Positions 5,280 to 64,000 of a DNA stretch of 64,000 nucleotides are shown here, piece by piece (within the stretch, counting starts at the first letter, position 1; each line of letters opens with the position of its first letter). The translations under genes were made by a program, and so were the position numbers. Location of the stretch: contig OY763927.2 of assembly GCA_963667665.2 (NCBI GenBank), positions 736,001 to 800,000 on the forward strand. The letters are read 5' to 3'. Below the pieces are notes generated by a model. The model saw only the letters and a list, made by a program, of their open reading frames with translations, was not told the DNA's origin and did no database searches. The DNA comes from Nitrosopumilus sp. Lineage in GTDB: Archaea > Thermoproteota > Nitrososphaeria > Nitrososphaerales > Nitrosopumilaceae.

Positions 5280-5309
5280 AAAATTCTTGTAAAAACACCC
5301 ATTATTATT

Positions 5310-5540: not shown

Positions 5541-5581
5541 TTAATGATAAAATGTACCTGAATAAATAACTAGATAATATT

Positions 5582-6408: not shown

Positions 6409-7286
6409 CAACTCATCCTAAAACAGATCATTTTGTAAACATTTGATGATAGTATGGATCTAACAATAACATCTATCAAATCATTTCTATGATTCATAAA
6501 GAACTAACAGACAAACAGTGGAAATCAATTATACCACATTTACCAAAACCTGCAAGAACAGGCAGACCAAGATGTGATGATAGAACAACAATTAATGGAA
6601 TTCTATTTGTTCTAACTGTTGGATGCAGATGGGAAGAATTACCAGAAAAGTATGGTTCCAAATCAACTACACATCTACGATTACAAGACTGGCAGCAAAA
6701 AGGAGTATGGAAAAAGATTCTTTCTGGAATAATGAAATCAGCTTACAAACAAAACAAGATTAATCTGCAAAAGATATCAGTTGATTCATCATCAATTTCC
6801 AATAAAAAAGGGGCAACGTAACTGGATATGATGGTTTCAAGAAGATTCTAGGTACAAAAATACATGTTGCCGTAGATAGTAATGGATTGCCAATATCAAT
6901 TGTATGCAGTCCTGCAAATCAACATGATAGTACGAAATTTATCGATGTCATGGAATCAATTTCAGATTTTGTAGATGATTCTATGATAGAAGAGATCGTA
7001 TCAGTGTATGCAGACAAGGGCTATGATGCAAAATACATCAGGAATTATCTGAGAAATCATTCTATCAGATGCTGCATTCCATACAGGAATAATTCCAAAT
7101 TCATCGTACCAAATAACATGCAGAATAATTACAACAAGACAAGGTTTGTTGTTGAGAGATTCTTTGCATGGTTGAAGAATGGATTTCATAGAACAAGAAT
7201 CAGATATGAGAAGAACTGTGATAATTATCTTGGGTTTGTGTATTTGGCATCAATTATGATGTACTGGAGAGTTTTAGGATAAGTTG
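6409..7286 (+). mobile_element. IS5-family insertion sequence (two-ORF, IS427-like group)
   Basis: 16-bp TIRs CAACTCATCCTAAAAC (6409-6424) and GTTTTAGGATAAGTTG (7271-7286), 15/16 match; no clear TSD. Confidence 0.88.
6489..7282 (+). CDS. IS5-family transposase, orfA+orfB joined by -1 frameshift
   Basis: orfA LTDKQW...GRPRCDDR...GCRWEELP; A6G4 at 6804-6813; -1 frame continues GNVTGYDGFKKILGTKIHVAVD...ADKGYD...RFVVERFFAWLK. Confidence 0.88.
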
Positions 7287-7333
7287 CAATTATGTTTCTG
7301 TGGTTTTTACCGACCTTTTTTTCCTTCTCATTA

Positions 7334-8342: not shown

Positions 8343-8504
8343 AAGTACGGCAAAAGGTGGCGGATGAAGATTGTGTTCCTTGCATTCAAGCGGATGTTAG
8401 ACGAACACCTGTACTCGCTAAAGTGGAAGAACTTGGTGCAGAAAGTCAGAATCAAGGTGGTCACGTACAACAGGCTGATAGACATAGGAACAAGAGCGGT
8501 GTAG
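8343..8504 (+). pseudogene. C-terminal remnant of a second, related IS5 transposase
   Basis: YGKRWRMKIVFLAFKRMLDEHL...IKVVTYNRL aligns with YGDRWIVEGVFSAFKRMFGEHV...MKVCLYNKM; begins at the TIR. Confidence 0.75.
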
Positions 8505-8599
8505 TGCAAAACATGCAAGACCCATATATGTTCCAAGTGAGCAAGTTCCAAACTCATGATATTTGTCCTAGTTTGAAACTGTATATTATGAGTGATATA

Positions 8600-10669: not shown

Positions 10670-13600
10670 TATTCTGAGAGACTAGAGATCCTGGAGATAA
10701 CAGAGATTCAGCATGCTTAAAGTTCATCCTAAAAGATACCGTGATATCATCACCTGGTGCCAAGTTTGTTGTCAACTCTTTTTTGGCATTTAGCAGCTCA
10801 AAGGTATTATCCATTTGTACTTCAATTAGAGGGGAATAGGTTAAGAGACCATCAGAGTTTGATGGGAATACGTTAAGGCTTTCTATTGTTTTAAAACCAG
10901 TATTTGTGATGGTTTGCTGTTTTACACCAGTCAGTAAGGAATAGGCATTAGCCTTGCCAAAATTCAAAGAGGGGTATTCCAGTGATATGTTACAAGATGT
11001 ATCAGTGGCTTCAAATCCTCTATCTGCAAAATATGTGCCAACTCTCTCCCAACCTGTTTGGAATATTCCATATATGGCATAATTAGCTACGGCCAAGTCG
11101 CCATATTCATCAAGGAATACATTACCTAACGCTCCCTGATTTTTCTGCACAGCAGCGGGAATGCTACTTGCAACCTCTTCAAAAGAAGCATTCAAACCTG
11201 CCACATCCCTTGCAAGGCCTATTGCCCATATAGTATCATAAGAAGAATATGCGTAGACGCTAGGTGTCTCACCGGGGAATTTATACTCTAGATTGTTGCG
11301 CAAATCAACATATTTTGTAGATGTGTAGTCTGCATCAAATATGCGTGATGTAAAATTAACATCAACTAGGAAATCCTTTATCTCCGGATCATCAACAAGA
11401 CTAGAGCTGAGTACTTGTGCATCAGAGCCTACCCAAGATACAGTACGTAAAACAGGATACTTTAGTGATTCTTGTACAATGAGATCCAACTCAAAGCCAA
11501 CATACAAAATTGCAATCTCATCAGCGTCGTAAGGTGATGTACTAACAGCATCAGCTAGTTCACGTACCAAACCTTGGAGCTGACCATCACAGGTAATATC
11601 GGATTTGTCAGTACAGGAAGCATATGTTCTAGGGGCAGTATCAACTGTACCGCCAAGTGATTTAAATTCATTGCCAGTTGAAGTTGTTAACCCGAGGCCA
11701 AATGTATCATCAATGTGTAATGGGATCAATTGTCTTTTGCCATCATTATATATTAAATTGGCAATGACAATGCCGTGTTTGTCATCGCTTGCAGCTAGCC
11801 TGAATATGTTGTCAATCTCTTTGAGGGATGGAGCAGTAGAGCAACAGCTAACCAAGGACAAGTTTGCACCCTCAGATTCAATGAGGTCAGTCTTTATCTT
11901 TGTTAATCCAGATGATATTGATGGACCAGAGATAAAAGAGATGCCGTTTTCATAAAGTGTTCTAGCCGCAGCTAGAGACGCAGTAGGATTAACCTGGGAA
12001 TCCATAATATCTACGGATAGTCGCCAGTCTGCATTATTTTCTATCAGATATCCATTAAAGTCAGATACTGCTACAATGGTAGCATATTTTCTGTGGGCGC
12101 CAGCATTATCTTGCCTACCAGACTCTGGAACTATGGCACCAATATCAATTATGGTCTTGTCTGTTCTCTCCCAAATTGGATCTTGGTTATCGTTAGTTAC
12201 TATACTAAATGTGTGATAACTGTTAGGGGTATGTAAATCACCAACACTATCTAGAACATATTGTCCTAATGCGCCATTGTATGAATTTTCAGTATCATCC
12301 AAATGATCCTTTATGGACGTATAGTCCTCCGCATATTCAATTCCCAGGTTACCTAAAAGTGAGACTGTATCATATACAGGGTCGTGATATGAATGGTAAT
12401 TTACACCAAGTGAGGATAAGTTGTCTTTTAATTCCAGTGATATTATATTTGGCTCTATACCAAACGCAATAGAAGTAAAGTTTACTTGGTTAGCAAATTC
12501 AGATGCAGTCAAATGGTTTGGTATGGTGGAGTCACTTACAATGCCACCAGGTGTATACCATTCAATATCACGCAATATACTATTTGGATTAATATCAATA
12601 GACAAATTAATAAAATTAGAACTGCCACCAATGAGTAATACTGCTATATTTTTGGAATTAACGCCTTCATCAGATATCGTACTAACAGAAGATTCTAAAC
12701 TAGTTACCATGTCGGTATAAACTGTATCAGCAGTAATTACATGGATATTGGCATCAGGGACAGCAGGTCTAAAAGAGTCCGCATAGTTTCTGCCCCATTC
12801 ATCATTAAAATATACAATTATAAGGGATGTTTTTTCATCACGTGATAAAAGATCTATTAATGCTCGTTTTTCATGTTCCAGAGTTGGTTGCAGTCTGTAT
12901 ATGTTATCCTCTACGGCAAGTGATGTAGCAGTAGATGTAGGGGAGATTAAAATAGAATCAGTAGAGTCAAAAAAGGGCTTTGCATATATAATTGATTGGC
13001 TGACAGTAAGTCCTAGAAAATATTTCGTCTTTTCATCAATAATATATGCAGAAGCAAAAACCAAATCATCATGTAAGACAAACCATGCCCTTCTAGTCTG
13101 CTCTAGACCAGTTGCAGGATCTTCAAGTGTGTAACTTACCCAAGTGCCACCAGATTGCAAATCAGATAGAATCACTTCAGGGTGCCTGTCAGGTATACCA
13201 ATAGATAAAGAATTAACACCGATTCTAGAAGAGTCTTGGGCGTGTGCAACTATATCATAAGTGACAGAATCAATTACAAATGGATAAAACAAGTCAGTGG
13301 CTGGATCAAACGTACCGTCAATTCCTGCAAACTTGTCACCAATAGAGATACTATCATATGCGGTAATTGCTTCGTTAATTACTGCCTCTAAGTATGGCTT
13401 GTGACCATCATCTCCAATGGGAGGGTTGTAACCTGCACCAACAAGATATCCGGATTCCGCATGATACACTATCAAAGAACGTTTTATACCACTGCTGTCA
13501 GTTGCGACATTCTCAAACTCATACTGCCACCACATCTCACTAGGAGCAGTACTAGAAGTAAATCTATCATATACAAAAGAGAAATCCATGTCAGGATTAG

Positions 13601-36325: not shown

Positions 36326-37726
36326 TTATTGGAATGGATCAATAAATGGACAGTTAACGATATGGTCACTATCCATTGGACGTGCAATGCCAATGTCGAT
36401 CAAGCCAGCTTCTCTGTATGCGTTCATGTCATCTATGGTTTCTAGTAGTTGTGCCTCATCAGGATTATCCCAGCCTATCATGAAGATTCTCCACATTGGA
36501 GAATAGTTTACATCACCAGGAGCTCCTGCTGCTATTCCAGGTTGAAATCCTAGTGGACCAGTACCTTTTAGACCATTTTTGAACTGATACAAATCTACTG
36601 CTGCTGAATTTGCAATCAAGCTTGCAGATGAAGGTGCACTTACAACACCCATCATTCCGGCAGGACCACTTGGAGTAGCATCTGTTACAATGTAATAGAT
36701 TGTGCTACCATCAGGGCCCCATCCACGATGAGCAATGAAAGTTACAGTCATCTCTTCTGTATCGATATCAAGAACTTGACCACCACCATATGGTGTTTCA
36801 TCAGTCAAAGTTTTGTCTTCTTTGACCATCATCTGACCATCAGGCCAAATAATTTGTGGCATATTCAAAACTACATTAACTTCGGTTAAAGTAATTTCTT
36901 CGTTGTCAGCTGCATCCATTATCATTGCATCTGAATCAAGGACTCTTGGTGATTCACCTTCATTCCATGTAACATGTACATGAGAAGCCAATGCACTGTA
37001 CACATCTGCTTGTGCAGGTGTACTTGTAAAGACTTCACCTTGATATCCATGAACACCATCGCCAGTAATGCCGTTGGTAAACATGTAGGTTTTTGAAAGT
37101 GCTTCATCAGGAGCATTTGCCAATAAAGGTGCAAGTTCTACTTGCCAACCTTGATTTTCTGTAATGATTTCTGCATGTGTAGGATCACTAGAATCAGTGA
37201 TGATGAAGTATACATCGCCACCATCATAGTATCCTTGATGCATTGGAATGTCTGTTGGAACATTTGCTCTTGATAATCTAAGTACAGACCCCAAGTCTGC
37301 CTCAGTTACTTCCATCATGGCTTCTTTTTCCATCATGGCTTCTTTTTCCATCATGGCTTCTTTTTCCATCATGGCTTCTTTTTCCATCATGGCTTCTTTT
37401 TCCATCATGGCTTCTTTTTCCATCATGGCTTCTTTTTCCATCATGGCTTCTTTTTCCATCATGGCTTCTTTTTCCATCATGGCTTCTTCTTCAGCAACTG
37501 GCGCTACAGGTGTTGGTGTTTTTTGCTGTTCCATCCATGCAGCTTTACCGCCTGGAATTTCAGAACATAACTGTAATCCACAGATATTTGTACTAGAACC
37601 ATATTGTGAGTTTCTAGTGCCTTGGCTTTTGATAGCATCAGCATCTGTGAAATAGTCAGTTGTCAATCCCGTAGTAAACAAGGGAATAATTGCAAGAAAT
37701 GCAATGTATCTTAGACTCTTATTCAT
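36326..37726 (-). CDS. Secreted protein with duplicated domain and Met-rich linker
   Basis: Signal peptide, CGLQLCSE motif, (AMMEKE)x10, two homologous domains (YFIITDSS / YYIVTDAT, YSALA / YSPMW, VLNMP / IVNCP). Confidence 0.85.
   Translation of the reverse strand: MNKSLRYIAFLAIIPLFTTGLTTDYFTDADAIKSQGTRNSQYGSSTNICGLQLCSEIPGGKAAWMEQQKTPTPVAPVAEEEAMMEKEAMMEKEAMMEKEAMMEKEAMMEKEAMMEKEAMMEKEAMMEKEAMMEKEAMMEVTEADLGSVLRLSRANVPTDIPMHQGYYDGGDVYFIITDSSDPTHAEIITENQGWQVELAPLLANAPDEALSKTYMFTNGITGDGVHGYQGEVFTSTPAQADVYSALASHVHVTWNEGESPRVLDSDAMIMDAADNEEITLTEVNVVLNMPQIIWPDGQMMVKEDKTLTDETPYGGGQVLDIDTEEMTVTFIAHRGWGPDGSTIYYIVTDATPSGPAGMMGVVSAPSSASLIANSAAVDLYQFKNGLKGTGPLGFQPGIAAGAPGDVNYSPMWRIFMIGWDNPDEAQLLETIDDMNAYREAGLIDIGIARPMDSDHIVNCPFIDPFQ
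37310..37488. repeat. 18-bp perfect coding tandem repeat, ~10 copies
   Basis: TTCCATCATGGCTTCTTT units. Confidence 0.97.
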
Positions 37727-52910: not shown

Positions 52911-53135
52911 TTAATGATATTTTGATTCCCAGCATTTTTTATGATATCTCTTTCTGCCATTCCTTGTGCTTGTAGTAGTATGAATTGTATCATTAAGGAC
53001 AAATGGCTTTCCGCATTTTACACATTTAGAATTTCTGAATTTTTTTAGTTGTGAATGATTTCTTATTACTGTGTCATTGGTTGCCATCAGTCTACTATGC
53101 CATGATTCAGCAGTATAACTTTGATGTTTAATCAA
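52911..53135 (-). CDS. Small zinc-finger protein (CxxC...HxxC)
   Basis: CVKCGKPF...RYHKKCW. Confidence 0.65.
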   Translation of the reverse strand: MIKHQSYTAESWHSRLMATNDTVIRNHSQLKKFRNSKCVKCGKPFVLNDTIHTTTSTRNGRKRYHKKCWESKYH

Positions 53136-53342
53136 AAATGATTAAAGTAAAAGACCATCAAAATGAAAACCAAACTTGAGGGGATGGTTAATTGGATACT
53201 GTGTGGCGGTCTTTTACTATACCATGAGTTATGTATGGATCAGATTTATGGTTGGCGATCAGCAATTCAATTCAATTTATGTCATCAATAAATTAAAAAA
53301 TCAAGTTTAAAAGAAAAAAATTCAACAAATAACAGATTTCAA

Positions 53343-53606
53343 ATGAGTAAAAACCAAACAATTTTTGCAGTCAAAATAAATGACATGTCAGCAGAACTGG
53401 AAATAGACAATTCCAAAATCAAATGCATCACTGGAAACACAGTTCATTTTGAAGCATTATTGAGTGATTTGAGGTCGTTTGTACATGTCAAATCAAACCA
53501 AATTTTGTTGAATTTTTACCAAAAAAACCAGCTAGTTCAATGTACCATTACATCAAAGCACTGTCTAAGTATAACCAAATCCATTGAAGAATTCACTCAA
53601 AACTAA
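53343..53606 (+). CDS. Hypothetical protein (possible PH-like fold)
   Basis: 87-aa beta-rich ORF with C-terminal helix. Confidence 0.5.
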   Translation: MSKNQTIFAVKINDMSAELEIDNSKIKCITGNTVHFEALLSDLRSFVHVKSNQILLNFYQKNQLVQCTITSKHCLSITKSIEEFTQN

Positions 53607-53977
53607 ATTTCTTGTTATTTTCTGTAATTATTGTAATGCTTGTACCTTGAATGGCAGGCTCTATTGCAATGATTTTTGATTGTGGTATGTCAGTTAATGA
53701 CTCAAGCGTATTGGTGTCATAAATGACATAACTCTCATCAGGATTTCCATCTATGAATAATTTTTTGATTATAATTGCATCTGTTCCTTGATTCATTACA
53801 TCTATTCGCAATACTGGATTTTCAATAATATCAATTAATTTTAATTGCTCTGAGGCGTATTTTTTCTGCATTTCAACTTTATCATACTGTGAAACACTTT
53901 CAACTTGTAGGGTATACAATACCAAATGTAACAGTAACCATTCCTGCAATTACTATCCATTCAAGTATTTGATTCAA
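53593..53977 (-). pseudogene. Frameshifted pilin/archaellin-like protein
   Basis: Hydrophobic leader MNQILEWIVIAGMVTVTFGIVY in one frame; IDVMNQG...IKKLFIDG body in another; shift near 53910. Confidence 0.55.
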
Positions 53978-54270
53978 AGTTCTGCCCCTTTGATGCAATC
54001 TGAGATATGATCTTGGTTTGATATTTCAAGAACCATCATTACATCATTTTCAGTAAAATCATCAATTTGAAATTCAATCTCAATGTATGCACCAGGTGCA
54101 ATTGTACCAATAGTCATTTCATTAATCGTAATGACATCATTAAACAAACTAAGGTCATAGTTTTCAATATCATAATCTCCATTGTTTATGGCTATTGCTT
54201 CTGTCCATAAATTATTTTTATCAACTGTATAGATTAATCCATTTTCAAAAACAAGATAATCAACTAAGAT
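53974..54270 (-). pseudogene. 5'-truncated gene fragment (beta-rich, surface-protein-like)
   Basis: Open frame VFENGLIYTVDKNNLWTEAIAINNGD...IAPGAYIEIEF...GAEL*, no start; stop overlaps the next TTG. Confidence 0.45.
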
Positions 54271-54395
54271 ATTGAAAAGTATCTCGAATAATACACGCGG
54301 TGCTAGAAGAGATCCCGGATGTACATAGTCGTCACACGATGATGATAATGATACAGAATGATCTGTTCAGTGTGCAGATGTTTTGTGTATGCTGA

Positions 54396-54937
54396 TTACT
54401 GCTGTATGATTGCAGGGTCTACAGGTATGATCCGCGGAGGGCGACATGGCCCGTTTTGATTTTTGAGGGCACCTTGCATGTATCCGAACAGTTTGACTAT
54501 GGGCACCTCCCCACTGTGCAACAGCTGCCTGATCCTCTTTTGCAGCTCATCTAACCCCCCCCCCCAAAAAAAAAAAAATATGTCTGCAACTGCGCGCCTT
54601 ATCTTGCTCCATTGTATCTCAGTTGGATTGTGCTGCAGGGTACTGGGAGGCAGAAACCACAAGACGACATCTTGGTGCTTTTGATATATTCGTCCATCTG
54701 TTTGCCGGTGTGGGCTGCCGCGTTGTCAAGTATTACGAACACTCTGCCATACCTGTATCTGAGATACTCCAAAAATGCAATTACGCTCTGGGCATCCGTC
54801 TTTTGATGGAACTGCATATCAAACGTACCCTGTCCCAGCGCCCCTATGATCTTTATGCTCTTTTTTGAAAAATTAATCTGGACCGTGTCCTTTCCGCCTT
54901 TTACACGTATGCCTCGCATCGATGAGGGCGCATCCAC
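54396..54937 (-). pseudogene. IS630-family transposase fragment
   Basis: VILDNAAAH, WFLPP...HNPTEIQW; frameshift near 54675; markedly higher GC; 5' half missing. Confidence 0.85.
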
Positions 54938-55991
54938 GGGGATTATAAGGTTTTTAGTGGTTGTTTGAGACCCAAAAAATTTCTAGATTTTGGGTTTTCA
55001 TAATCTCAATAACCATTTTGGGGATGAAAAGGGACGCAGATGAGTATAGAAATTGATTTTAAACATATGTTTAGGATGAAATTCCTTGACGAAAAAGAAA
55101 ATCATCATCAGCATATTTGTTGGAATTATTGCAATATTGGGATTAGACGCCTTTGTAATCGAACCCAACATGATCGAAGTTAATGAAATTAATATCTCAA
55201 ATACTGGAACTACAATGAAAATTGGTTTTATTTCTGATTTTCAAAGACAAAATTCTGATCCTGTATTTGTTCAACGTGTTGTAGATATACTAAATGCACA
55301 AGATCTTGATACAGTAATTATTGCAGGTGATTTTATAGATAGAAGTTTAGGTGAATTACCTTCACTGGATCCATTAGGGGAATTAGAAACAAGAAGTGGA
55401 GTATATGGTGTTTTAGGAAATCATGATTATAATGTATATTCTTTGAATCGTAATAATGCTAATTTTGAACTTGCAGAAACTGTAATAGAATATCTTGAAT
55501 CCAATGGTCCAATAGAAATTCTTAGAAATGAGAATGTTGTAATTAATGATGTTGTAATAATCGGTCTTGATTCTTACTGGGCAGGTTTAAGAGATTTAGA
55601 TAAAGCTTTTACAAATACTTCAAATGATTTCAAAATTTTATTTGCACATAATCAAAATGATTTAGAAATTAACAAAGAAATTGCAGATGTGTATTTATTT
55701 GGACACACTCATTGTGGACAAGTTAGACTTCCATATGTTGAATCCATACCAAAAATATTTGGATTTGAAGGGGATTATGACTATAGACATTATATTGTAA
55801 ATGATGCAGATGTCTATACAACATGTGGTTTAACTCCTGCACCAAGATTTTTCAATCCTCCAGAAATTACAATCATAAATTTGTTGGAATAACTGTTTTT
55901 CTTTTAATTGAAAATCAATATTCTATTAATTTAGGCTAAAATGAGCAAAAAGAAAATCCATGTGTCCACGGGGATTATAAGGTTTTTAGTG
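54933..55991. repeat. Perfect 27-bp direct repeat flanking one gene
   Basis: TCCACGGGGATTATAAGGTTTTTAGTG at 54933-54959 and 55965-55991. Confidence 0.92.
55086..55892 (+). CDS. Metallophosphoesterase (YkuE-like)
   Basis: ISD, AGDFID, LGNHD, AHN, GHTHCGQVRLP, RFFNPPEI. Confidence 0.92.
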   Translation: MTKKKIIISIFVGIIAILGLDAFVIEPNMIEVNEINISNTGTTMKIGFISDFQRQNSDPVFVQRVVDILNAQDLDTVIIAGDFIDRSLGELPSLDPLGELETRSGVYGVLGNHDYNVYSLNRNNANFELAETVIEYLESNGPIEILRNENVVINDVVIIGLDSYWAGLRDLDKAFTNTSNDFKILFAHNQNDLEINKEIADVYLFGHTHCGQVRLPYVESIPKIFGFEGDYDYRHYIVNDADVYTTCGLTPAPRFFNPPEITIINLLE

Positions 55992-56139
55992 ACTATTTTG
56001 GCACGGTATAAAAATATCAAATACTCTCAATGAACACTTCAAAAGTACCTCTGTTAAGGCATAATCATGTCATTTAAGAGATACAGTTTAACAATTCATT
56101 TAGTTTTACATGGTTTGTAATTGTCACAGTCAAAAATAT

Positions 56140-56754
56140 TTAGTCTATTTTATTCCAATTTAATTTTTCAGCAGTTTCAAGTAAAACACAAGCTAATTTT
56201 CCATTAGGTCTTTCAGCTAATAGCTGCAATTCATTTTTGCATTTGATTTCTTTGATATGAACATTGTTTTCTATTTGTATTTTTAAAGACAATCTAATTA
56301 TTTCAATTTCATTACAATCATTTACAATCTGTGTCACCGTTCTACCAGCAGCCATAGATCCTGAAATAATTTCTATTGCATCAGAATTTCTAACAGGAAT
56401 TACCAAATTATAAAAACAATCTGATTCGGATTGTTTAATTTCTAATCCAGAATGTCCATTAGATTGTTTAGCATGCAAACTAAAACCAAAATCCAAGTTG
56501 GTAGTTCTAGGCATTTCTTTTGGAATTTGTATATGAATAGTGTCAGTGATCACTTTATCAAATACAATTGTTCCTGTTGGTAAAACCCCATTACCCCAAC
56601 TAAGTTTGATATCAGCTACGTTTGAACTGTTTGTGGTTATTGTAAATCCATCTACATCAAAAGATTTTGTTTCTTCAGCATATGCTATAGGAATTAATGT
56701 CACAATTGCTAAAAGAGAAATTATTATTTTATTCATGATTATTTTTTTCATCAT
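56140..56754 (-). CDS. Secreted thaumarchaeal protein
   Basis: Signal peptide to AYA; C-terminal IKCKNEL...ERPNGKLACV...TAEKLNW motif. Confidence 0.75.
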   Translation of the reverse strand: MMKKIIMNKIIISLLAIVTLIPIAYAEETKSFDVDGFTITTNSSNVADIKLSWGNGVLPTGTIVFDKVITDTIHIQIPKEMPRTTNLDFGFSLHAKQSNGHSGLEIKQSESDCFYNLVIPVRNSDAIEIISGSMAAGRTVTQIVNDCNEIEIIRLSLKIQIENNVHIKEIKCKNELQLLAERPNGKLACVLLETAEKLNWNKID

Positions 56755-56918
56755 CAGTATTATTAGTTATTTAGGAATCTAAAGAAAAAAAAGATTAGAA
56801 GCCCCATGTAAGACCACTAAGATAGGTTGTGAATTTATCAGCTTTGACATAAACAGATCCAGTTGAATCATCAGGGTTTTTAGCTACCATAAATCCAAGT
56901 AATTCAGAACCACTTGAA

Positions 56919-57298
56919 TTGAATACGGGAATACGCCAAACGACAATTGGGCAATCATTTGAGTATCCTTCTAATCCTCCAAACATTGATGTTCATTTTA
57001 TTGAGATCTTACCTGGTGCAGAAAGTGGTTGGCATACTCATGACACGCCCTTGGTTGTAACTATTCTACATGGTGAGATTACAATTCATTATTGTAACGA
57101 AGAAATAGAAAATTCTGCAGATAAAGAACAATGTAATGATAAAGGAATTGTCAGAAATTTTCAAGCAGGGGATTCATTTGTTGAGGCAATCAATATAGAA
57201 CATAATGGAGTAAATGATGGAGTGATTCCTGTAAAATGCATGTAATTACGTTGAATCCAGATGAAAACTGGGAAGATATCTATTCTCCAGAGGATTAA
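56919..57298 (+). pseudogene. Cupin-domain protein, 5'-truncated and frameshifted
   Basis: ILPGAESGWHTH, AGDSFVE, EHNGVN; 1-bp deficit at ~57235, other frame continues MHVITLNPDENWEDIYSPED*. Confidence 0.7.
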
Positions 57299-57334
57299 TG
57301 AATGACTAAGATTAAGTGGTTATTTTAGGTACAA

Positions 57335-57545
57335 AATCATGCCAAGTTTTGATTGTAATTAACAAAAATTAGCAATAGAGTTAATGCTAGAATCTTAAAA
57401 TTATCATTGCAATTTCTTAACACTGATTAGCACGTAATGTTTTGCTAGGAATTGATTTTAGTACTTTTTTGTGCGTAACTTTTTTCGTTCCTAGTGCGTA
57501 ATAATTAGAGGTTAGAAATGCTAAATTCTATCAAATTATGCTAAT
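57335..57545. repeat. ~200-bp intergenic repeat, copy A
   Basis: Shares a 50-bp identical block (57436-57485) with copy B; two TAGCA-N10-TGCTA sites (57370, 57428). Confidence 0.9.
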
Positions 57546-57555
57546 GTTATTAATA

Positions 57556-58386
57556 TTACATCAAAATTTCACAGATTTCAATCCATCCACTTTGTTGATC
57601 AAATAGTGCATTTTGAAAGGTTCTTTCTTTTTCCATTGCTTTCATTTCATAATGAGTAAATAATTTTGCATTGATCTTTTTTAGATGTATCTTAATATCT
57701 TCAACATCATATCTTGTAATAGAAGATAGATTAGCATCACGTGAAATTAGATTAAATGGATACTCTGCTATTTCAAGCCATTCATTTGGAATTCTGTTTG
57801 CAGGAAGTAAATACTCTAAAACAACATGATTGTTTTGGTTTTCTGATTTAAACTCACCAATAATTCTCCATAGTTGATCTTCTGACAAATAGTAAGACAA
57901 GCCTTCAATAATTATTAGCGAGGGCATGTTCTTATTCCATCCATGTTTTATCAGATTTGGAATTATTTTATTTGATTCTGACAGATTGAGATCAATACAT
58001 GAAATAGAATCTACAAGTGATAAATGTACATCACGAATCAAATCTCTTTTTACATCCATGTTTTTAGCATCAATTTCAAAAACTCTGTATTTTTTTGAAT
58101 GTGAACATATTTCCAAGGATAATGCATCAAGACCAGCACCAAGAATTACTATCTGTTCAATCTTGTTTTCTAAGATATTATTTTTGGTTAAATCAAGTAT
58201 GCATGATTTTCTGTTCTTGAGAATTTCTGGATAATGTGGCCAAAGTTTTTTGCATTGTTCTAAAATTTCTCGTCCAGAATCTAAATTTAACATGCTAAGA
58301 AATTTCTGAGCAAAATGACTTGTATGAATTTCTCCATTTGTCCACAAAAGAACCAATGCAGAGGTGGAAGAAAGATCTGTCTTCAT
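57556..58386 (-). CDS. Class I SAM-dependent methyltransferase (LCM family)
   Basis: QIVILGAGLD, FEID, IIEGLSYYL. Confidence 0.9.
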   Translation of the reverse strand: MKTDLSSTSALVLLWTNGEIHTSHFAQKFLSMLNLDSGREILEQCKKLWPHYPEILKNRKSCILDLTKNNILENKIEQIVILGAGLDALSLEICSHSKKYRVFEIDAKNMDVKRDLIRDVHLSLVDSISCIDLNLSESNKIIPNLIKHGWNKNMPSLIIIEGLSYYLSEDQLWRIIGEFKSENQNNHVVLEYLLPANRIPNEWLEIAEYPFNLISRDANLSSITRYDVEDIKIHLKKINAKLFTHYEMKAMEKERTFQNALFDQQSGWIEICEILM

Positions 58387-58444
58387 TCTTGTAAATTACC
58401 TAGTTTAATTCTTAAATTTTTGTTCATATTCATTCTATTTTTAG

Positions 58445-58650
58445 AATCATGTAATTAATGGTCATAATTTAACAAAAAATTAGCAATAGAGTTAATGCTA
58501 TAATCTTAAAAATCATCATTACAATATTCTAGCACAGACTTACGCACAATGTTTTGCTAGGAATTGATTTTAGTACTTTTTTGTGCGTAACTTTTTTGTT
58601 TTGTTATACGTAAAAAATAAGGTAATGTGTTAGAATCTAGCAGTATTCTA
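58445..58650. repeat. ~200-bp intergenic repeat, copy B
   Basis: AAAAATTAGCAATAGAGTTAATGCTA and 50-bp block 58548-58597 identical to copy A. Confidence 0.9.
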
Positions 58651-58679
58651 TTATTTTTATAATATGTAATTAAAAAAAT

Positions 58680-60905
58680 CTAACTTAATTCAATTATGTC
58701 CCTTGCTAATGAATCATGATATTCTATTTGTATTACCATGAATCCTTTGAGAATATGTTTTGGTATTTCAATATTGATGTTACCGTATTTGTCATCATAT
58801 GACATTTGCTCATACATTCTTTTACCATCTTGATCAAAAATTGTTAAAAATATAGGTTCACGATATTCTACAAGTTTTGCAATCTTGCCAGTTATTTTTA
58901 CTGTACTATTAATTGCAGATGCATCTATGACAATTTCCGGTGATTGTATAGAGAGATATAATTTTATATTGTTTTTGAATTGTTGAATTGATTCTGTAGC
59001 AGATTGGATTTTTCCACCAGTGAGATCTTGTTTGATTTTATTTATGAGTAATTGAATTTTCCACAATTGTTTTTCAGAACCAGAATTAGTAAATTTCTTT
59101 ACAAAACTTTCTAGACTTTCAAACGTATTTGCTATTTCCATTATTGCAATCTCATCTGAATTAAAGATCATGCTTTGAAGATCATCATCTTGAATTGATA
59201 TTATCTGTGATTCTTTGGCAGAGCCATGATGTATTTCTGCAATATATAATCCAGATTTTATATCACTGTTCCACAAAATTTGAAAGTCACCATATTTTGT
59301 AGTACGTGAATTAAGTTCTACAATTTCATTATTCTGATTAAAAAGATAAAATGAAACCTTATCCCTTGAATTCAAAGAATGTTTGTATACTGCACCTTTG
59401 ATAGTTAGCAGGTTTGAATCAGAGTCATAGAGTATATCCATCATTATTCTGGGATCATGTGGTAAAAACTTCTGACTTGCAAAATCAATAATTTTGTAGA
59501 TTTTTTTATGACCTACCTCAAAATTCCCGTACAGGATGGATGCTTTAGATTCCCGTATTGATTTATGATATTTCTGATAATCTACAGAAGTATGGTTAAT
59601 GTTTAAACTACTCACCAATGTATCTATTTGTGAAATTTGGTTCAGATAGATCTGCTTTTTTTGTGCAGTTGAAATATCGTGTTGCTTGTAAATGGGCGTG
59701 TAATTTCTTATCTCAGGATAAAATCGCTCAAAGTTAATCCATTCCTGTTCTACTGCATCAAGTAATTGTTGTGCATACCTGAAATCATTTAATTCCAAGG
59801 CATTTTTAATGTTAGATACTCGCTTCAGAGTATTTTTTATTTTTGATTCAAATTCTGGCATTTTCTCTAAATGAGATTTGTCGTTTGCTTTATTTTGTAA
59901 TTGAATTACTTTTTGTTCCATCTGATTCTTGTTATCAAGATACAAGCTATATTCTTTGAGATCTGATTTTATCTTTAAATAATTCTGACTTATATTATGT
60001 AAAATTGCCTTTGACTGTACATCATTATCAAACGGATTTGAATTTTTTTCTATCTTTTTTACCATGTTCAAATTTTTGATGTTTTGTTCTATGAGCATAA
60101 GATCTTGAATATTTTCTTGTTTCTTAGCATCATTTTTGAGTGTTGTAATTTTTACTTCCCATTTTGATATTATTTTATCATCTATTTTACCTACTTTTCC
60201 ATGATACTTTGTTGCAATTTTTGTCATATCTGTTATGGATTGAGATTGTGACATTTCCTTTTTGAAATTATCCCATACTGATTTTACATGTGGATCAATT
60301 ATTATGAATACTGGAGAATGTGTATTTTCATTAATTCTTGAATTGTATTTTATTATTTTTCCCATGTTCTCAACATCTGTTTGAAATGATAAGACATCAT
60401 CAACTGTTTTTGATTCTTTTATTTTTGCATGTATTGGTTCCCATATGTAATGCAGGTATATTTTTGAATCCAGAATTTCATTATATCTTAGCATCTGTTT
60501 AATTTTGTTTGAAGAAATCAATATGTCAATTGATTGTTCTAGATATTTTATCTCATTTTGATATGTTGTGATCTGTTTCATTGTTTCTACCTGTCTCAGT
60601 GATGCCCTAAGATCTCTTAATGAATCAATTATTTCTGGATAGTTTTTTTGTTGGTAAATTTCTTCTAATCCATCAATAGAATTTAAGATATTTTTGACTG
60701 TGTATTGTTGTAATTGTGAAGTTGCATTCCAATTACCTTCTACGTCTGCTTTGAATTTATCTTTTAGAATTAGACTCAAAGAATCAATTTGTTCCAACAT
60801 TGCTACATATTGACTTGCATCTGTTGCATAGACGACATTAACTGGGATAAGAGTAACAAATCCAATTAAAAATATTATGATAATAGTAGATTTAGTATAT
60901 CTCAT
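58680..60905 (-). CDS. Large secreted coiled-coil protein with two C-terminal helical+Ig-like units
   Basis: Signal peptide to VYA; repeated P.I..D...(L/V).I.G...(R).....L.(L/I)F(N/D)Q...KYG...I.(A/Q)(E/I)..H units. Confidence 0.75.
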   Translation of the reverse strand: MRYTKSTIIIIFLIGFVTLIPVNVVYATDASQYVAMLEQIDSLSLILKDKFKADVEGNWNATSQLQQYTVKNILNSIDGLEEIYQQKNYPEIIDSLRDLRASLRQVETMKQITTYQNEIKYLEQSIDILISSNKIKQMLRYNEILDSKIYLHYIWEPIHAKIKESKTVDDVLSFQTDVENMGKIIKYNSRINENTHSPVFIIIDPHVKSVWDNFKKEMSQSQSITDMTKIATKYHGKVGKIDDKIISKWEVKITTLKNDAKKQENIQDLMLIEQNIKNLNMVKKIEKNSNPFDNDVQSKAILHNISQNYLKIKSDLKEYSLYLDNKNQMEQKVIQLQNKANDKSHLEKMPEFESKIKNTLKRVSNIKNALELNDFRYAQQLLDAVEQEWINFERFYPEIRNYTPIYKQHDISTAQKKQIYLNQISQIDTLVSSLNINHTSVDYQKYHKSIRESKASILYGNFEVGHKKIYKIIDFASQKFLPHDPRIMMDILYDSDSNLLTIKGAVYKHSLNSRDKVSFYLFNQNNEIVELNSRTTKYGDFQILWNSDIKSGLYIAEIHHGSAKESQIISIQDDDLQSMIFNSDEIAIMEIANTFESLESFVKKFTNSGSEKQLWKIQLLINKIKQDLTGGKIQSATESIQQFKNNIKLYLSIQSPEIVIDASAINSTVKITGKIAKLVEYREPIFLTIFDQDGKRMYEQMSYDDKYGNINIEIPKHILKGFMVIQIEYHDSLARDIIELS

Positions 60906-61140
60906 TTCATGTTTCTAATAGAATGTAAAAACATACAACTTAACGATTACGTAGAAATGATACGGAATGGTTATAACTTTTGATACAAATTTTACAACAT
61001 CTTTAACATCATAACACTCATCATAATGAGTTTTTGTTAAATAATTTATCATGCAAGTAATTTTAATCGCTCGTCACGACATTAAGAGATATCTATAACG
61101 TAGTTGCTTTTTTTCATTATGTCGTGACAAACTTTTCTTA

Positions 61141-61185
61141 TTTCAATTGCAATTAACAAAAGTTAGAATTAATGCTAGAATCATT
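61141..61185. repeat. Partial copy C of intergenic repeat
   Basis: AATTGCAATTAACAAAAGTTAGAATTAATGCTAGAATC matches the left part of A/D with an internal deletion. Confidence 0.65.
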
Positions 61186-61254
61186 GAGAACATTTTTCTA
61201 ATTATGTTTAATTACAGTTTGGTTAATATTTCGAAAGATTTGATTTCAGCATAG

Positions 61255-62055
61255 ATGACTACAGTGGACAATACTGCAATAATTTGGTCTGTTGTGATAG
61301 TTATCATTGCTGTAGGATTTACAACTCTAGGCAACACGGCAGAGCAGATTGAATCCAAAATTGTCACACCTACTCCATTTAATGTAAAACTTGATGTTGT
61401 AGAACCATCAATATCATCACAAATAACCGTAAAAACAGGCAAGGAGACATATCTCAAAAATGACAAAATCAAAGTTTCAGGTTTGGTAGATCCTGTATTG
61501 CCTGAGATTCAAGTGACCATGGTGGTTATTTCTCCAGAGGGTAATCTTATTGCAATTGCACAAACGGAACTTGATGATAACAAACAATTTTCTGAAACAA
61601 TTCTTACGAGTGGAGTATTATGGACTAGTGAAGGAGAATACTCTATAGAAATAATTTATGGAAAAACAAACACGGCTCAGATAACTTTTGAGTTTATCAT
61701 GCCAGTTGTTTCTGATTTAGTTGTAGAAAAAGTTGAAATTGAGAATTATGATTTACACTATGATATCACAAGTGGAATGGTTCATGACATTACGCTAGAT
61801 GATAATTGTAACTGCATGAATATAATTATTGATGCACAAGATAACGATGGTGTGTTAGCGTTATACCTGCCAAGAGGATTGATAGATGCAAAAATGAGTA
61901 ATGGTGAAGATGATATGTTTTTTATCTTGATGGATGGCGTTGAAATAGCTTATCAAGAAATTGACAGTACGGATTCAAACCGCACAATTGTAATAAAATT
62001 TGAACAAGGAACATCAGATATAGAAGTCATTGGAATTGATCCAAATTGGAGATAG
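61255..62055 (+). CDS. PEFG-CTERM-family surface protein lacking its anchor
   Basis: ITVKTGKETY...GNLIAIAQ...LPRGLIDAK...DDMFFILMDG...IEVIG; in-frame MVLPEF follows the TAG. Confidence 0.8.
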   Translation: MTTVDNTAIIWSVVIVIIAVGFTTLGNTAEQIESKIVTPTPFNVKLDVVEPSISSQITVKTGKETYLKNDKIKVSGLVDPVLPEIQVTMVVISPEGNLIAIAQTELDDNKQFSETILTSGVLWTSEGEYSIEIIYGKTNTAQITFEFIMPVVSDLVVEKVEIENYDLHYDITSGMVHDITLDDNCNCMNIIIDAQDNDGVLALYLPRGLIDAKMSNGEDDMFFILMDGVEIAYQEIDSTDSNRTIVIKFEQGTSDIEVIGIDPNWR

Positions 62056-62073
62056 ATGGTGTTACCAGAATTT

Positions 62074-62298
62074 TGTCAAGTTTTAATTACAATTAGCAAA
62101 AAATTAGCAGTCAGACTTAATGCTAGAGTCTTGGAAAAAGTCTAGCAAAATTATAGCACTCAATTACTCGACAACAAAGTGCTACAAACAATTTTAGCAT
62201 TAATTTGTGTGTAATTTTTTTTGTTTCTAGTGCGTAAAAAACAGAGGGTGCAAGTAGGATTCTGTCAAGATATGTCTTGTAATACTAGGTGATTCTAG
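62074..62298. repeat. ~200-bp intergenic repeat, diverged copy D
   Basis: CAAGTTTT...AAAAATTAGCA...TTAATGCTAGA.TCTT...TTTGTG.GTAA.TTTTTT...CTAGTGCGTAA collinear with copy A. Confidence 0.8.
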
Positions 62299-64000
62299 AA
62301 GGAAGGAGTATGCTATACTCCAGAATACATAACAAATTACATTTGTTTGAATACAATTATTCCTCATTTATCCAAATCAAATGCAACATCCATATCAGAA
62401 CTAATCAAAGAGTATGAAAATAACGTCGACGAACTAGAAAAAAAATTTAAAGAAATGAAAATTTTAGATCCAGCTTGTGGTAGTGGAGCATTTTTAGTAA
62501 AAGCAATCGACATATTACTTGAAATTCATAAAGAAATTCAAGATATAAAAGGAAAAAGTGAAAAACATTCAGAAAAACAGTTACAAATTACGCATGAATG
62601 GGATGAAAATAAAGAAGTCAGAGCAATTATTGAAAATAACATCTACGGGGTAGATATTAATCCAGAATCAATAGATATTACAAAATTAAGCTTATTTCTA
62701 AAATTAGCTTCTAACGAAAGAAAGCTGATTGGATTATCTAACAATATCAAAGTTGGGAATAGTCTAGTAGACGATAATACAATCGATTCACATGGTTTTC
62801 TTTATGATAAAGAATTTCCAGAGGTAATGGAACTTGGCAAATTTGATATTATAATTGGAAATCCTCCATACATCAGAGTACAAAGAATCAAACATGAAAT
62901 AATTGATTTTCTTTTAGAAAAATATGAGTGTGCACACAAAAAATTTGATATTTCATTAATGTTTTTTGAAAAAAGTCTAGAATTGATAAATGAAGATGGA
63001 TTAATAGGCTTCATCTCATCATCACAATGGCTTAACACAGATTATGGTGAAAAATTACGTGAGATGTTGTCAAAAGGTTTGATAAAAGAGATCATAGATT
63101 TTGGAAGTTTACCAATTTTTGAAGATGCTTCTACATATCCAGCCATATTCATTCTAAGTAAAGATATTCAGAAGAGATTACAATACAAAAAAATTAAAGA
63201 TCAATCAAAACTTTCCTTAGAAGGAATAACATCATCAAAAGGCATCCCAATGCAATATTCAAAATTTGGGAAAAAATCATGGTCATTTAATGAATTTGAT
63301 TTAATTTCTCACTTAGAAAAAAATAAAATAAATTGGAATTTACTCTCAACTCATGGTAATTTCTATTATGGAACAATTTCGGGTCAAGATGAAGTATTCA
63401 TTGTCAGTATTGACATAGTTCAAGCAAACAATCTGGAACAAAAATTTCTTTTTCCGTATGCATATCAAGGAAGAGAAGTTAAGAAATTTCTAAAAACAAT
63501 TCCATCCGAAATGATTATCTATCCATACAAATCAGATTCAGATGGAAAGGCAATTTTGATGAAAGAGGATGAATTGAAGTCCAAAGCGCCTAACATTCAC
63601 AATTATTTACTCAAACACAAACCAAAGTTACTTGAAAGAAAAGATTCTCGAAAATTTTATGCAAAAGGAGAGAATTGGTTTAAACTTGTTAGACAAGGAA
63701 ATTTTAACTTAATCTATCCAAAAAAACTTTTGATAAAAGGCATAGAAAAAGAATCAGTTGTAGGCTTTTTATCAGAAAATACTGCTTTTAGTGGGGCAAA
63801 TTCACCTGCATTCATACTTGAAAATGAGAAATATGACTGGAAGGTGTTCTTGTGCATTTTAAATTCAACATTAATTTCACAATATCTACAATCAATTTGT
63901 CCTGCAAAATTACACGGATTCTTTAGATTTAACACAAACAGTCTCAACACAATTCCAATACCTGAATATATTAACAAATCCGAGATTCAGGAATTGGAGA
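62299..64000 (+). pseudogene. 5'-truncated type IIG (Eco57I-like) R-M N6-adenine methyltransferase, runs off window
   Basis: Open frame after TAG 62296-62298: KEGVCYTPEYI...ILDPACGSGAFL...IYGVDIN...GNSL...IIGNPPY; first ATG at 62455; no nuclease N-terminus. Confidence 0.85.

What the first reader, a model, noticed from the sequence alone, without database searches (positions are those of the whole stretch)
57335..62298. Cassette-like array: unrelated genes separated by a co-oriented ~200-bp repeat with palindromic cores
Seen: copies at 57335-57545, 58445-58650, 61141-61185 (partial) and 62074-62298, plus a possible faint one at ~56064, all in the same orientation. They separate a cupin, an LCM methyltransferase, a 741-aa secreted protein, a PEFG-family protein and a type IIG R-M gene. 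A and B share 50 identical bp. The core AAATTAGCAAT-AGAGTT-AATGCTAGAAT can be read as an 11-6-11 imperfect palindrome, and A has a second TAGCA-N10-TGCTA 58 bp on. Copy D's edges coincide with two gene truncations. Established: 11-6-11 is Xer/dif geometry, and pdif modules and integron attC arrays shuffle single genes. On the minus strand A and B run TCTAAC...GTTAA(T/A)T after gene stops but span about 160-170 bp, longer than typical attC. Inference: an undescribed archaeal gene-capture or shuffling system acted on by a recombinase encoded elsewhere; a MITE or a conserved ncRNA are alternatives.
Basis: partly seen in the sequence, partly recalled or inferred. Interest (0 to 1): 0.8.

Follow-up and report, generated by a model that had tools for sequence, protein, structure and literature searches.

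The report
Leftover integration-site arms of mobile elements
The repeated 200-bp sequence between unrelated genes is most likely the conserved end piece of a family of integrating mobile elements that piled up and decayed next to one surviving integrase gene, a known kind of genome scar rather than a new gene-capture machine.

Summary
The repeat is real. There are three full co-oriented copies (A 57335-57560, B 58445-58670, D 62066-62298) and one partial copy (C 61141-61190). It occurs nowhere else in the 1.89-Mb genome. Among 151 genomes of the genus, only one other carries it, as a single copy.

It has no attC-like hairpin, no terminal inverted repeats or target duplication, and no Rfam match.

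In the other genome (G405), and as a remnant in copy A, the repeat continues leftward into a 45-nt motif "E". Two more E copies lie at 54933 and 55965. E is a 25-nt arm followed by the first 11 nt of the 3' end of tRNA-Val(TAC). E matches (85% over 72 nt) the integrase-distal end of an element integrated in tandem at tRNA-Val(TAC) in a third genome (G327). It is also an inverted copy of the arm in front of an intact tyrosine integrase that lies 2.4 kb beyond copy D, just outside the window.

I therefore read the repeat as the integrase-distal attachment-site arm of that element family. I read the "cassette array" as an accretion of decayed, integrase-less element remnants. Every junction I could test is broken, and B, C and D have lost both arm and core. 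An active integron-like platform is not excluded but is unlikely.

The parts
54477..54913 (-). Fragment of an IS630-type (DDE_3) transposase gene. It is the left flank of motif E1.
   Evidence: tblastn with the genome's intact 356-aa IS630 transposase matches residues 212-354 only, in two frames. No N-terminal partner was found anywhere in the genome.
54933..55010 (-). E1: an attR-type junction, read on the minus strand as distal arm, then TATA-like TTATAA, then the first 11 nt of the tRNA-Val(TAC) 3'-end core, then foreign flank.
   Evidence: 85% identical over 72 nt (E 4e-17) to the integrase-distal arm plus core of the tandem site in G327. This was the only significant non-self hit in 150 other genomes of the genus. 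Alignment; core.
55086..55892 (+). Metallophosphoesterase gene lying between E1 and E2.
   Evidence: Pfam Metallophos, E 1e-12.
55965..55998 (-). E2: a second attR-type remnant. It keeps the core and 23 nt of the arm and has a different flank.
   Evidence: 27 nt are 100% identical to E1. It matches the 16-nt tRNA-Val core with 2 mismatches.
56140..56754 (-). 204-aa ORF with no Pfam family.
   Evidence: DNA relatives at 67-78% identity occur in 6 genomes of the genus.
56931..57305 (+). Cupin pseudogene, 5'-truncated at 56931 and frame-broken near 57240.
   Evidence: 97% identical over 376 nt to an intact cupin gene in G274. The identity starts at 56931 and ends at 57305, about 7 nt after the cupin stop. 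Pfam Cupin_2.
57313..57560 (-). Copy A: an arm remnant (57315-57328) plus the ~225-nt body. The core is lost, and A is joined to the cupin end at 57305/57306.
57556..58386 (-). Leucine carboxyl methyltransferase-family gene. Its stop abuts copy A.
   Evidence: Pfam LCM, E 2e-18.
58445..58670 (-). Copy B: body only. Arm and core are lost.
58680..60905 (-). 741-aa ORF with no Pfam family. Its stop abuts copy B.
   Evidence: About 70% DNA identity in 4 genomes of the genus, and the identity begins at the stop codon, so the repeat is not shared.
61141..61190 (-). Copy C: only the ~50-nt core-proximal block of the body.
   Evidence: nhmmer E 0.026. Repeat families D4 and D12. Alignment.
61255..62055 (+). 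266-aa ORF with no Pfam family.
   Evidence: Its C-terminal ~170 nt has 68-78% relatives in many genomes of the genus.
62066..62298 (-). Copy D: body only. Its right edge is the truncation point of the restriction-modification gene.
62299..64000 (+). 5'-truncated type IIG restriction-modification gene. The methylase and TaqI_C specificity parts remain. It runs on to window-equivalent 64339.
   Evidence: Pfam Eco57I E 2e-41, MmeI_Mtase and TaqI_C. It aligns from its residue 2 to residue 433 of a 1110-aa paralogue. Homology starts at 62299 and no N-terminal piece exists in the genome.

Best explanation
The ~225-bp repeat is the conserved non-coding end of a family of small integrative elements of Nitrosopumilus-type archaea. 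It lies on the side of the element far from the integrase gene. These elements are moved by a tyrosine integrase that normally targets the 3' end of tRNA genes; for this subfamily the target is tRNA-Val(TAC).

**Shown**
- The attachment site of the free element is a short tRNA-like core flanked by two ~25-nt inverted arms (TAGTGACTG-N4-AGACCCAA).
- One arm sits just upstream of the integrase gene.
- The other arm sits at the opposite end of the element and is followed inward by the repeat body.

**Inferred**
- Each repeat copy marks the integrase-distal end of one element, or of an integrase-less derivative, that entered this locus.
- Repeated entries next to one another (accretion), followed by deletions, left a row of single-gene remnants that all point the same way. 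One intact integrase remains at the far end, at C1:800673-801953, integrated into a pseudo-site inside a DUF7482 gene.
- The body probably carries protein-binding sites for the integrase or an accessory factor. The candidates are the rare TTACGCAC boxes, two or three in A and B and one or two in D. This has not been tested.
- In its present state the array is largely dead: no copy in this genome has core, arm and body together.
For: 1. **The repeat joins motif E.** In G405 the repeat body is contiguous on its left with motif E (L044 9670-9830). Copy A keeps the arm part of E (57315-57328).
2. **E matches a true integration-site end.** An 81-nt query from E1 finds one significant non-self hit among 150 other genomes of the genus: G327:C7:31474-31545, 85% over 72 nt, E 4e-17. 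That site is the sequence immediately before the second copy of a 17-nt direct repeat of the tRNA-Val(TAC) 3' end. It lies between an integrase fragment and a second integrase gene.
3. **The resident integrase belongs to that family.** It is 81-86% identical over its first ~180 residues to the G327 integrase fragment. Its upstream 45 nt are nearly identical to the G327 tRNA-proximal junction, from GTGGGCCCA onward.
4. **The family targets tRNA genes.** In 8 of 10 fetched relatives a tRNA gene ends 6-15 nt before the predicted integrase start.
5. **E mirrors the integrase-proximal arm.** A degenerate 22-nt pattern hits only E1 and the integrase junction in the 1.9-Mb genome (the pattern was derived from these sites). 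A second family member, G403, has a 26-nt att direct repeat 8.85 kb apart, and by my own reading of the printed sequence (not scored by any tool) similar inverted arms.
6. **Crossover pattern fits integration.** E1 and E2 keep AATCCCCGTGG and then diverge. The integrase junction keeps GTGGGCCCA preceded by DUF7482 codons (KGTGPLG), which resemble the tRNA 3' end. This is the attR/attL pattern expected after integration at pseudo-sites.
7. **Same layout in G405.** Going right from motif E come the repeat body, a defence operon (Mrr, an unknown gene, SNF2), and then an integrase fragment on the opposite strand 8.7 kb away.
8. **Rare boxes are concentrated in the body.** The 7-mer TACGCAC occurs 41 times in the genome, and 5 of those are in A, B and D. 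The 10-mer TTACGCACAA also sits in the integrase-proximal arm of L111, and close variants (TCACGCACAA; TTACGTGC on the other strand) in L117 and L112, so 3 of 12 upstream regions carry such a box.
9. **Literature (passages read).** Thaumarchaeal integrated elements have short att sites (median 17 bp). 57% of them sit in tRNA genes and others in protein genes, and tyrosine-recombinase elements form arrays by re-using a site (PMC6563490). Integrase loss after integration and tandem integration are reported for archaea (PMC8371274).
Against: - No copy in G000 has core, arm and body together. The link between body and att arm rests on one contiguous copy (G405), the arm remnant in A, and a ~40-nt alignment of the inner part of E1 with the left end of A.
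- No integrase fragment is left between the copies: tblastn finds only chance hits, E >= 1.2. Decay of five to seven autonomous elements should have left some.
- The matching partner junctions are missing. There is no DUF7482 N-terminal piece and no transposase N-terminal piece.
- The body has no homologue at the distal end of the G327 or G403 elements. It is therefore specific to a small subfamily.
- It was found in only 2 of 151 genus genomes and in none of the other 263 family genomes sampled.
- No pattern hit in metagenome or viral contigs proved to be a true homologue.
- No excision product or empty site was seen. The one 'goes back' joint in a public run (62188 to 56931) does not lie at a predicted att site.
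Confidence: 0.6

Rival explanations
1. An integron-like or CIME-like platform. Integrase-less single-gene units, each ending in the ~250-bp arm plus core, are inserted and excised in trans by the neighbouring tRNA-Val-type integrase, so the row is a working or recently working gene-capture array.
For: - Five to seven co-oriented units of 1-2.5 kb lie next to one integrase, with no integrase debris between them.
- Cargo differs between G000 and G405 while the arm is homologous.
- Integrase-less units between two cores also occur at tRNA-Val(CAC) in G405 (3.46 kb), and a 1.25-kb unit occurs in G327.
- The cupin is 97% identical to a gene of another species, which points to recent import.
Against: - B, C and D lack arm and core, and A lacks the core.
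- E1 and E2 have no proximal-arm-like sequence on their flank side, so no complete attP-like site exists in the array.
- Junctions cut genes at 56931 and 62299.
- The strain differences seen in run X15 have breakpoints at 56931, 60977 and 64104, not at the repeats.
- Gene orientation is mixed.
- No hairpin is present.
Confidence: 0.13
2. The body is mainly a functional cis-regulatory or small-RNA module, for example an operator or promoter region or a ~90-nt sRNA ending in the T-runs. It travels with these elements, and its repetition reflects selection for that function.
For: - A and B share a 50-nt identical run inside copies that are 74% alike overall.
- Two T-runs on the + strand follow a modest stem.
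- The TTACGCAC boxes are rare in the genome and are repeated.
Against: - No Rfam family reaches gathering score. The only hit at E <= 1 is a 21-bit snoRNA match against a gathering score of 45.
- The fold z-score is -1.7 on the + strand and -0.6 on the - strand.
- The consensus fold is weak (-14 and -12 kcal/mol), with 4 of 41 and 3 of 28 pairs changed on both sides.
- The 50-nt block is not kept in D or G405.
- The position of the body relative to neighbouring genes is inconsistent.
Confidence: 0.1
3. Local segmental duplication, or homologous recombination between copies of one intergenic sequence, with genes later inserted between them. No site-specific recombinase is involved.
For: - The copies are confined to 5 kb.
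- Assembly graphs of public runs branch inside A, B and D.
- The literature proposes homologous recombination between tandem elements (PMC8371274, passage read).
Against: - The copies differ by 11-34% while the neighbouring cupin is 97% identical to another species' gene. The copies therefore predate their arrival here.
- A homologous copy sits in a different genome with different neighbours.
- The att arm is attached to the body.
Confidence: 0.07
4. A MITE or other non-autonomous transposon.
For: It is short, non-coding and repeated. Fragments of IS630-type transposase genes lie nearby.
Against: - There are no terminal inverted repeats or target duplications.
- All copies lie within 5 kb and none elsewhere in the genome.
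- The ends are heterogeneous.
- It shows no similarity to the IS630 copies.
Confidence: 0.02

Closest known systems
Integrated mobile elements of Thaumarchaeota (cryptic integrated elements; Krupovic et al. 2019, PMC6563490, passages read)
   Same: A tyrosine integrase, a short att core (here 11-17 nt), tRNA-gene targets with occasional protein-gene targets, and re-use of one site to form arrays.
   Different: Here most units have no integrase and hold a single gene. A long (~250 nt) conserved non-coding distal arm is what repeats. In the passages I read (a term search, not the whole text) I did not see such a long arm repeat described.
Accretion of ICEs with cis-mobilizable elements (CIMEs) in streptococci. 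The concept is recalled; the review PMC5704250 was seen only as a search listing and the start of its abstract.
   Same: Site-specific integration next to a resident element yields tandem units separated by att sites in direct orientation. There is one integrase at one end, and the integrase-less units keep att sites.
   Different: This is in bacteria with conjugative elements. There the internal att sites stay intact and the units can be mobilised. Here most internal sites are broken.
Integron cassette arrays (IntI, attI, attC); features recalled
   Same: A row of unrelated, mostly single genes separated by a recombination-site-related repeat, next to a tyrosine recombinase.
   Different: There is no attC hairpin. 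The repeat is ~225-270 nt with 66-89% sequence identity. Gene orientation is mixed. The integrase belongs to a tRNA-targeting element family. The junctions truncate genes.
Phage lambda-type attP with extended arms (recalled)
   Same: An attachment site of ~250 bp in which a short core is flanked by arms carrying several short protein-binding boxes.
   Different: Binding has not been tested here. The arms closest to the core are a 25-nt inverted repeat, which is closer to simple core-type sites.
Xer/dif sites and pdif modules (dif geometry from a passage of PMC8371274; pdif modules recalled)
   Same: Copy A contains an imperfect palindrome with roughly 11-6-11 spacing.
   Different: Only 7 of 11 positions pair. 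The palindrome is not kept in the G405 copy. The copies are co-oriented rather than alternating. The actual crossover core lies elsewhere.

Membership tests
attR-type end of a tRNA-targeting tyrosine-integrase element | A short core identical to the 3' end of the target tRNA gene at the outer edge | tested here: met
   E1 and E2 carry AATCCCCGTGG, the first 11 nt of the 16-nt 3' end of the genome's own tRNA-Val(TAC) at C1:1348100-1348176. The G327 homologue has the full 17-nt direct repeat. This feature is NOT met for copies A, B, C and D themselves.
attR-type end of a tRNA-targeting tyrosine-integrase element | Homology to the integrase-distal end of an element whose two ends are defined by att direct repeats | tested here: met
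   E1 against G327:C7:31474-31545 gives 85% over 72 nt, E 4e-17. This was the only significant non-self hit among 150 other genomes of the genus.
attR-type end of a tRNA-targeting tyrosine-integrase element | An integrase of the matching family at the other end, reading away from its own att junction | tested here: met
   A 426-aa tyrosine recombinase lies at C1:800673-801953 on the minus strand. It scores only 18-19.5 bits against Pfam PF00589 (below the cut-off), but it is 53-70% identical over most of its length to the integrase genes of the ten fetched loci, eight of which lie directly after a tRNA gene.
attR-type end of a tRNA-targeting tyrosine-integrase element | Physical continuity between the repeat body (the finding) and the arm plus core | tested here: inconclusive
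   The two are contiguous in G405 (1 copy). An arm remnant survives in A. Continuity is absent in B, C and D. E1 and E2 have arm and core but no body.
attR-type end of a tRNA-targeting tyrosine-integrase element | A partner junction on the same target (attL and attR flank one interrupted target) | tested here: not met
   No DUF7482 N-terminal piece and no transposase N-terminal piece exists. No close relative was available for an empty-site comparison.
attR-type end of a tRNA-targeting tyrosine-integrase element | Excision or integration activity (circular junction, empty site) | not testable with these tools
   Only contigs of public runs could be laid. No joint at predicted att positions was listed.
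Integron (attC array) | attC: a 57-141-nt imperfect palindrome that folds as a single-strand hairpin, conserved in structure rather than sequence (recalled definition) | tested here: not met
   The single-strand fold z-score is -1.7 on the + strand and -0.6 on the - strand (RNA parameters, because the DNA-parameter batch failed on a length slip). Consensus folds are -14 and -12 kcal/mol with little covariation. The unit is 225-270 nt long.
Integron (attC array) | Cassette ORFs co-oriented, each followed by its attC | tested here: not met
   Gene strands run +, -, -, +, + around co-oriented repeats.
Integron (attC array) | An IntI-type integrase with the integron-specific extra domain | not tested
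   No IntI-specific model was run. The protein's relatives sit at tRNA genes, as element integrases do.
Xer/dif or pdif module | A conserved 11-6-11 site present in every copy | tested here: not met
   The arms pair at 7 of 11 positions. The right half-site is lost in the G405 copy and the left half is deleted in C. The second palindrome occurs only in A.
MITE | Terminal inverted repeats, target-site duplication and dispersed copies | tested here: not met
Known RNA family (Rfam 15) | A match at or above the gathering score | tested here: not met
   No matches in the whole window. One chance-level match at E 1 in 53000-63000.

The most novel reading that the evidence does not exclude
The tRNA-Val-type integrase mobilises integrase-less single-gene units in trans. 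Each unit carries a ~250-bp arm plus an 11-16-nt tRNA-like core. This locus would then be an archaeal counterpart of integron or CIME gene capture, caught in a decayed state. The long arm would be the unit's recombination and regulatory site, with a TATA-like box at the arm edge that would drive the integrase only after circularisation or tandem joining.
Probability: 0.12. Interest if true: 0.75.

Novelty: new member of a known kind. Interest (0 to 1): 0.35.

Why it matters
- It explains a striking-looking "cassette array" as the footprint of a known process: repeated site-specific integration followed by decay. That saves it from being counted as a new system.
- It defines the attachment-site architecture of a widespread Nitrosopumilus integrase family. 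The family is found in 77 of 151 genus genomes at E <= 1e-20. The site is a tRNA 3'-end core flanked by 25-nt inverted arms, with the integrase start a few tens of bases from the core.
- It shows that such elements can land in a protein gene whose codons mimic the tRNA end.
- The arm and core motifs can be used to delimit integrated elements and their integrase-less remnants in ammonia-oxidising archaea, where att sites are short and hard to find.

Tried and rejected
- **DNA-parameter folding.** The batch of six strands failed on a one-base length slip and was not resent. I used RNA-parameter folds and consensus folds instead.
- **Family-wide DNA search.** Searching 301 genomes gave 42 genomes with E <= 0.01. 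Every non-self hit was 19-59 nt long (best E 1.5e-5). The two I inspected were short intergenic or coding look-alikes, so I treat them all as chance.
- **Pattern scans for the body's most conserved block.**
  - Genome contigs: 7 loci, of which 1 is real (L064).
  - Viral contigs: 3 loci, 0 real.
  - Metagenome contigs: 10 loci, 0 real.
- **Viral scans for the two arms.** These gave 0 hits and 1 chance hit.
- **Motif E as transposase sequence.** I first read E as part of an IS630 transposase coding sequence or an IS end. I rejected this after and searches showed it to be an att arm plus tRNA-like core.
- **A look-alike near C1:273,000** is an unrelated repeated end of another element's gene.
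- **Integrase remnants in the array.** None were found.
- **Missing partner junctions.** None were found.
- **Empty-site comparison.** No genome of the genus shares the right flank at useful identity. The best match to the DUF7482 piece is 68%.
- **Flanks of cargo-gene relatives.** The 13 loci are mostly +/-1.5 kb. They show no integrase, tRNA or arm, which is too little flank to count as evidence.
- **Public runs.** 20 rows from 10 studies hold the stretch, and no RNA holder is listed, so expression could not be examined. Parts without cover in the runs laid are not used as evidence of absence.
- **Tools and material not available.** Supplementary tables of PMC6563490, which list att sites and elements, could not be opened. 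They may already describe this integrase family.

Full report
**Observation**

The window is G000:C1:736001-800000 of a 1.89-Mb, 34% G+C genome. The one named relative record that carries the repeat is titled Nitrosopumilus sp..

The repeat is real. The repeat finder, MAFFT and a self-BLAST recover three full co-oriented copies: A 57335-57560, B 58445-58670 and D 62066-62298. They also recover a ~50-nt partial copy, C 61141-61190. By BLAST, A/B are 89% identical over 131 nt and A/D 70% over 183 nt. End to end the copies are 66-74% alike. A and B share an exact 50-nt run. An nhmmer profile finds only these four places in the whole genome.

- The cupin is 5'-truncated at 56931 and frame-broken when compared with an intact 97%-identical gene in G274.
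- The restriction-modification gene starts at 62299, at about residue 416-433 of a 1110-aa paralogue, and no N-terminal piece exists anywhere in the genome.

**What it is not**

- No Rfam family matches.
- Single-strand folds are unremarkable (z -1.7 and -0.6). The consensus folds of the three copies are weak, with little covariation. There is therefore no attC-like hairpin and no sign of a structured RNA.
- There are no terminal inverted repeats, no target duplications and no dispersed copies, so it is not a MITE.
- The 11-6-11 palindrome pairs at 7 of 11 positions and is not kept in the only foreign copy.

**Distribution**

- Among 301 genomes of the family sampled evenly, only short chance matches were found.
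- Among all 151 genomes of the genus held, only G405 has a homologue. It is one copy, 75% identical over 125 nt, E 4e-15.
- Pattern scans of species genomes, viral contigs and metagenome contigs gave 7, 3 and 10 hits. nhmmer confirms only the G405 record.
- The array itself is present almost unchanged in 20 public run rows from 10 studies.

**The lead: motif E and the integrase**

In G405 the repeat is preceded without a gap by a ~45-nt motif that I call E. The window has two more E copies, at 54933-54975 and 55965-55998. Copy A keeps the inner part of E at 57315-57328. The three complete E copies end at the same nucleotide on the left and have three unrelated flanks.

Just past the window end, a 426-aa tyrosine recombinase lies on the minus strand at C1:800673-801953. 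It scores below the Pfam cut-off. By eye it carries the catalytic Arg, His-x-x-Arg and Tyr pattern that I recall for this superfamily. Its start abuts a 5'-truncated DUF7482 gene. The 25 nt around the annotated integrase start are an inverted copy of the arm in E. A degenerate pattern built from these sites hits only E1 and this junction in the whole genome.

**Relatives of the integrase settle the meaning**

The integrase family is common: 77 of 151 genus genomes match at E <= 1e-20. I fetched ten loci. In 8 of 10, a tRNA gene ends 6-15 nt before the predicted integrase start.

In G327 the order is:
- tRNA-Val(TAC);
- a 16-17-nt core;
- an integrase fragment 81-86% identical to the one here;
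- 1.25 kb of other sequence;
- a distal arm;
- a second copy of the core;
- a second integrase gene.

An independent search with E1 as query finds exactly that distal arm plus core: 85% over 72 nt, E 4e-17. It is the only significant non-self hit in the genus.

This gives three readings:
- E is an attR-type junction. Read on the minus strand, it is distal arm, then core, then flank.
- The junction at the integrase is the attL type. It keeps GTGGGCCCA and the proximal arm, preceded by DUF7482 codons (KGTGPLG) that mimic the tRNA 3' end.
- E1 and E2 keep AATCCCCGTGG and then diverge. This is what integration of an arm-core-arm attP into pseudo-sites would leave behind.

The genome's own tRNA-Val(TAC) is unoccupied. 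Another family member, G403, has a 26-nt att repeat 8.85 kb apart and, by my own reading of the printed sequence (not scored by any tool), similar inverted arms.

**Placing the repeat**

The repeat body lies on the element-internal side of the distal arm. It is contiguous with the arm in G405. An arm remnant survives in A. The inner ~40 nt of E1 align with the left end of A.

G405 shows the same overall layout. Going right from motif E come the body, then a defence operon (Mrr nuclease, an unknown gene, SNF2 helicase), then an integrase fragment on the other strand 8.7 kb away.

The body carries copies of a box that is rare in this genome, two or three in A and B and one or two in D. The 7-mer TACGCAC occurs 41 times genome-wide, and 5 of those are in A, B and D. 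The 10-mer TTACGCACAA also occurs in the integrase-proximal arm of L111, and close variants in L117 and L112, so 3 of 12 upstream regions carry such a box. I infer protein-binding sites but have not tested this.

**How the array arose (inferred)**

Elements or integrase-less derivatives of this subfamily entered side by side. Deletions then removed cores, arms and integrases. Several observations fit this:
- All copies point toward one integrase.
- Junctions cut genes at 56931, at 62299, at the transposase fragment next to E1 and at DUF7482.
- Tandem sites containing a shrunken unit or an integrase-less unit exist in G327 (1.25 kb) and G405 (3.46 kb at tRNA-Val(CAC)).
- Passages read in PMC6563490 and PMC8371274 report short att sites, tRNA and protein-gene targets, tandem arrays and integrase loss in archaea.

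**What does not fit well**

- There is no integrase debris between the copies.
- No partner junctions exist.
- The body is absent from the G327 and G403 distal ends.
- No copy in G000 has all the parts together.

In public runs the order matches the reference in X8 and X16. X15 differs, with breakpoints at 56931, 60977 and 64104, none of them at a repeat. One X8 contig runs from 62188 back to 56931, and I cannot explain it.

**Verdict**

However, the array is most likely a graveyard of integrative-element ends, a new member of a known kind, and not a new capture system. I put the active, integron-like reading at about 0.12-0.13.

Noticed in passing
C1:801935-801975 (window-equivalent 65935-65975); window 36326-37726: The conserved KGTGPLG codons of DUF7482 genes, read on the opposite strand, resemble the 3' end of tRNA-Val(TAC) at 13 of 18 positions in the intact paralogue. 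This seems to have served as a pseudo-attachment site for the integrase-bearing element.
   Followed up: partly
window 54940-54950; L114 (G327) 11525-11536; upstream regions: The distal arm ends in TTATAA about 24 nt before the annotated GTG of the integrase (once joined across the core). In the integrated state the tRNA T-loop TTCAAAT occupies the same place. Either could act as a TATA-like box, giving joining-dependent integrase expression. The real start codon may be the conserved ATG (MKIEL) 12 codons further in.
   Followed up: no
C1:803683-804999 and C1:808019-809335 (L031 7684-9000 and ~12020-13336): Two 100% identical inverted copies of a 1.3-kb IS630-type element, plus a third full-length IS630 transposase at L031 15661-16731. 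Relatives at 91-92% identity occur in G287.
   Followed up: partly
L031 6180-6440 (C1:802179-802439): The truncated DUF7482 gene carries a long Met/Asp-rich tandem repeat (MMMDNMMED...). The intact paralogue at window 36326-37726 has an EAMMEK repeat at the corresponding place (75-nt repeat at 37310-37492).
   Followed up: no
window 54556-54580: A run of about 9 C followed by about 13 A lies inside the decayed transposase fragment, which is frame-shifted around this tract.
   Followed up: no
whole genome G000: There are 16 matches to the tyrosine-recombinase family PF00589 in a 1.9-Mb genome, 11 of them over the cut-off. They include an identical inverted pair at C1:1837351 and C1:1847351, each next to a tRNA-Cys gene.
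   Followed up: no
C1:272990-273310: Tandem ~233-nt repeats. Each contains the C-terminal part of an integrase-core (rve-like) gene and a shared end sequence that partly resembles motif E (12 nt).
   Followed up: partly
L120 oriented 5245-8832 (G405, tRNA-Val(CAC) site): A 3.46-kb unit without an integrase lies between the tRNA gene and a second copy of its 3' end (13 nt), followed by an integrase gene. This is another tandem site with an integrase-less member.
   Followed up: partly
window 56900-62400 in public runs: The array is held nearly unchanged by 20 run rows from 10 studies, among them runs labelled sponge metagenome. No run on record as RNA holds it.
   Followed up: partly
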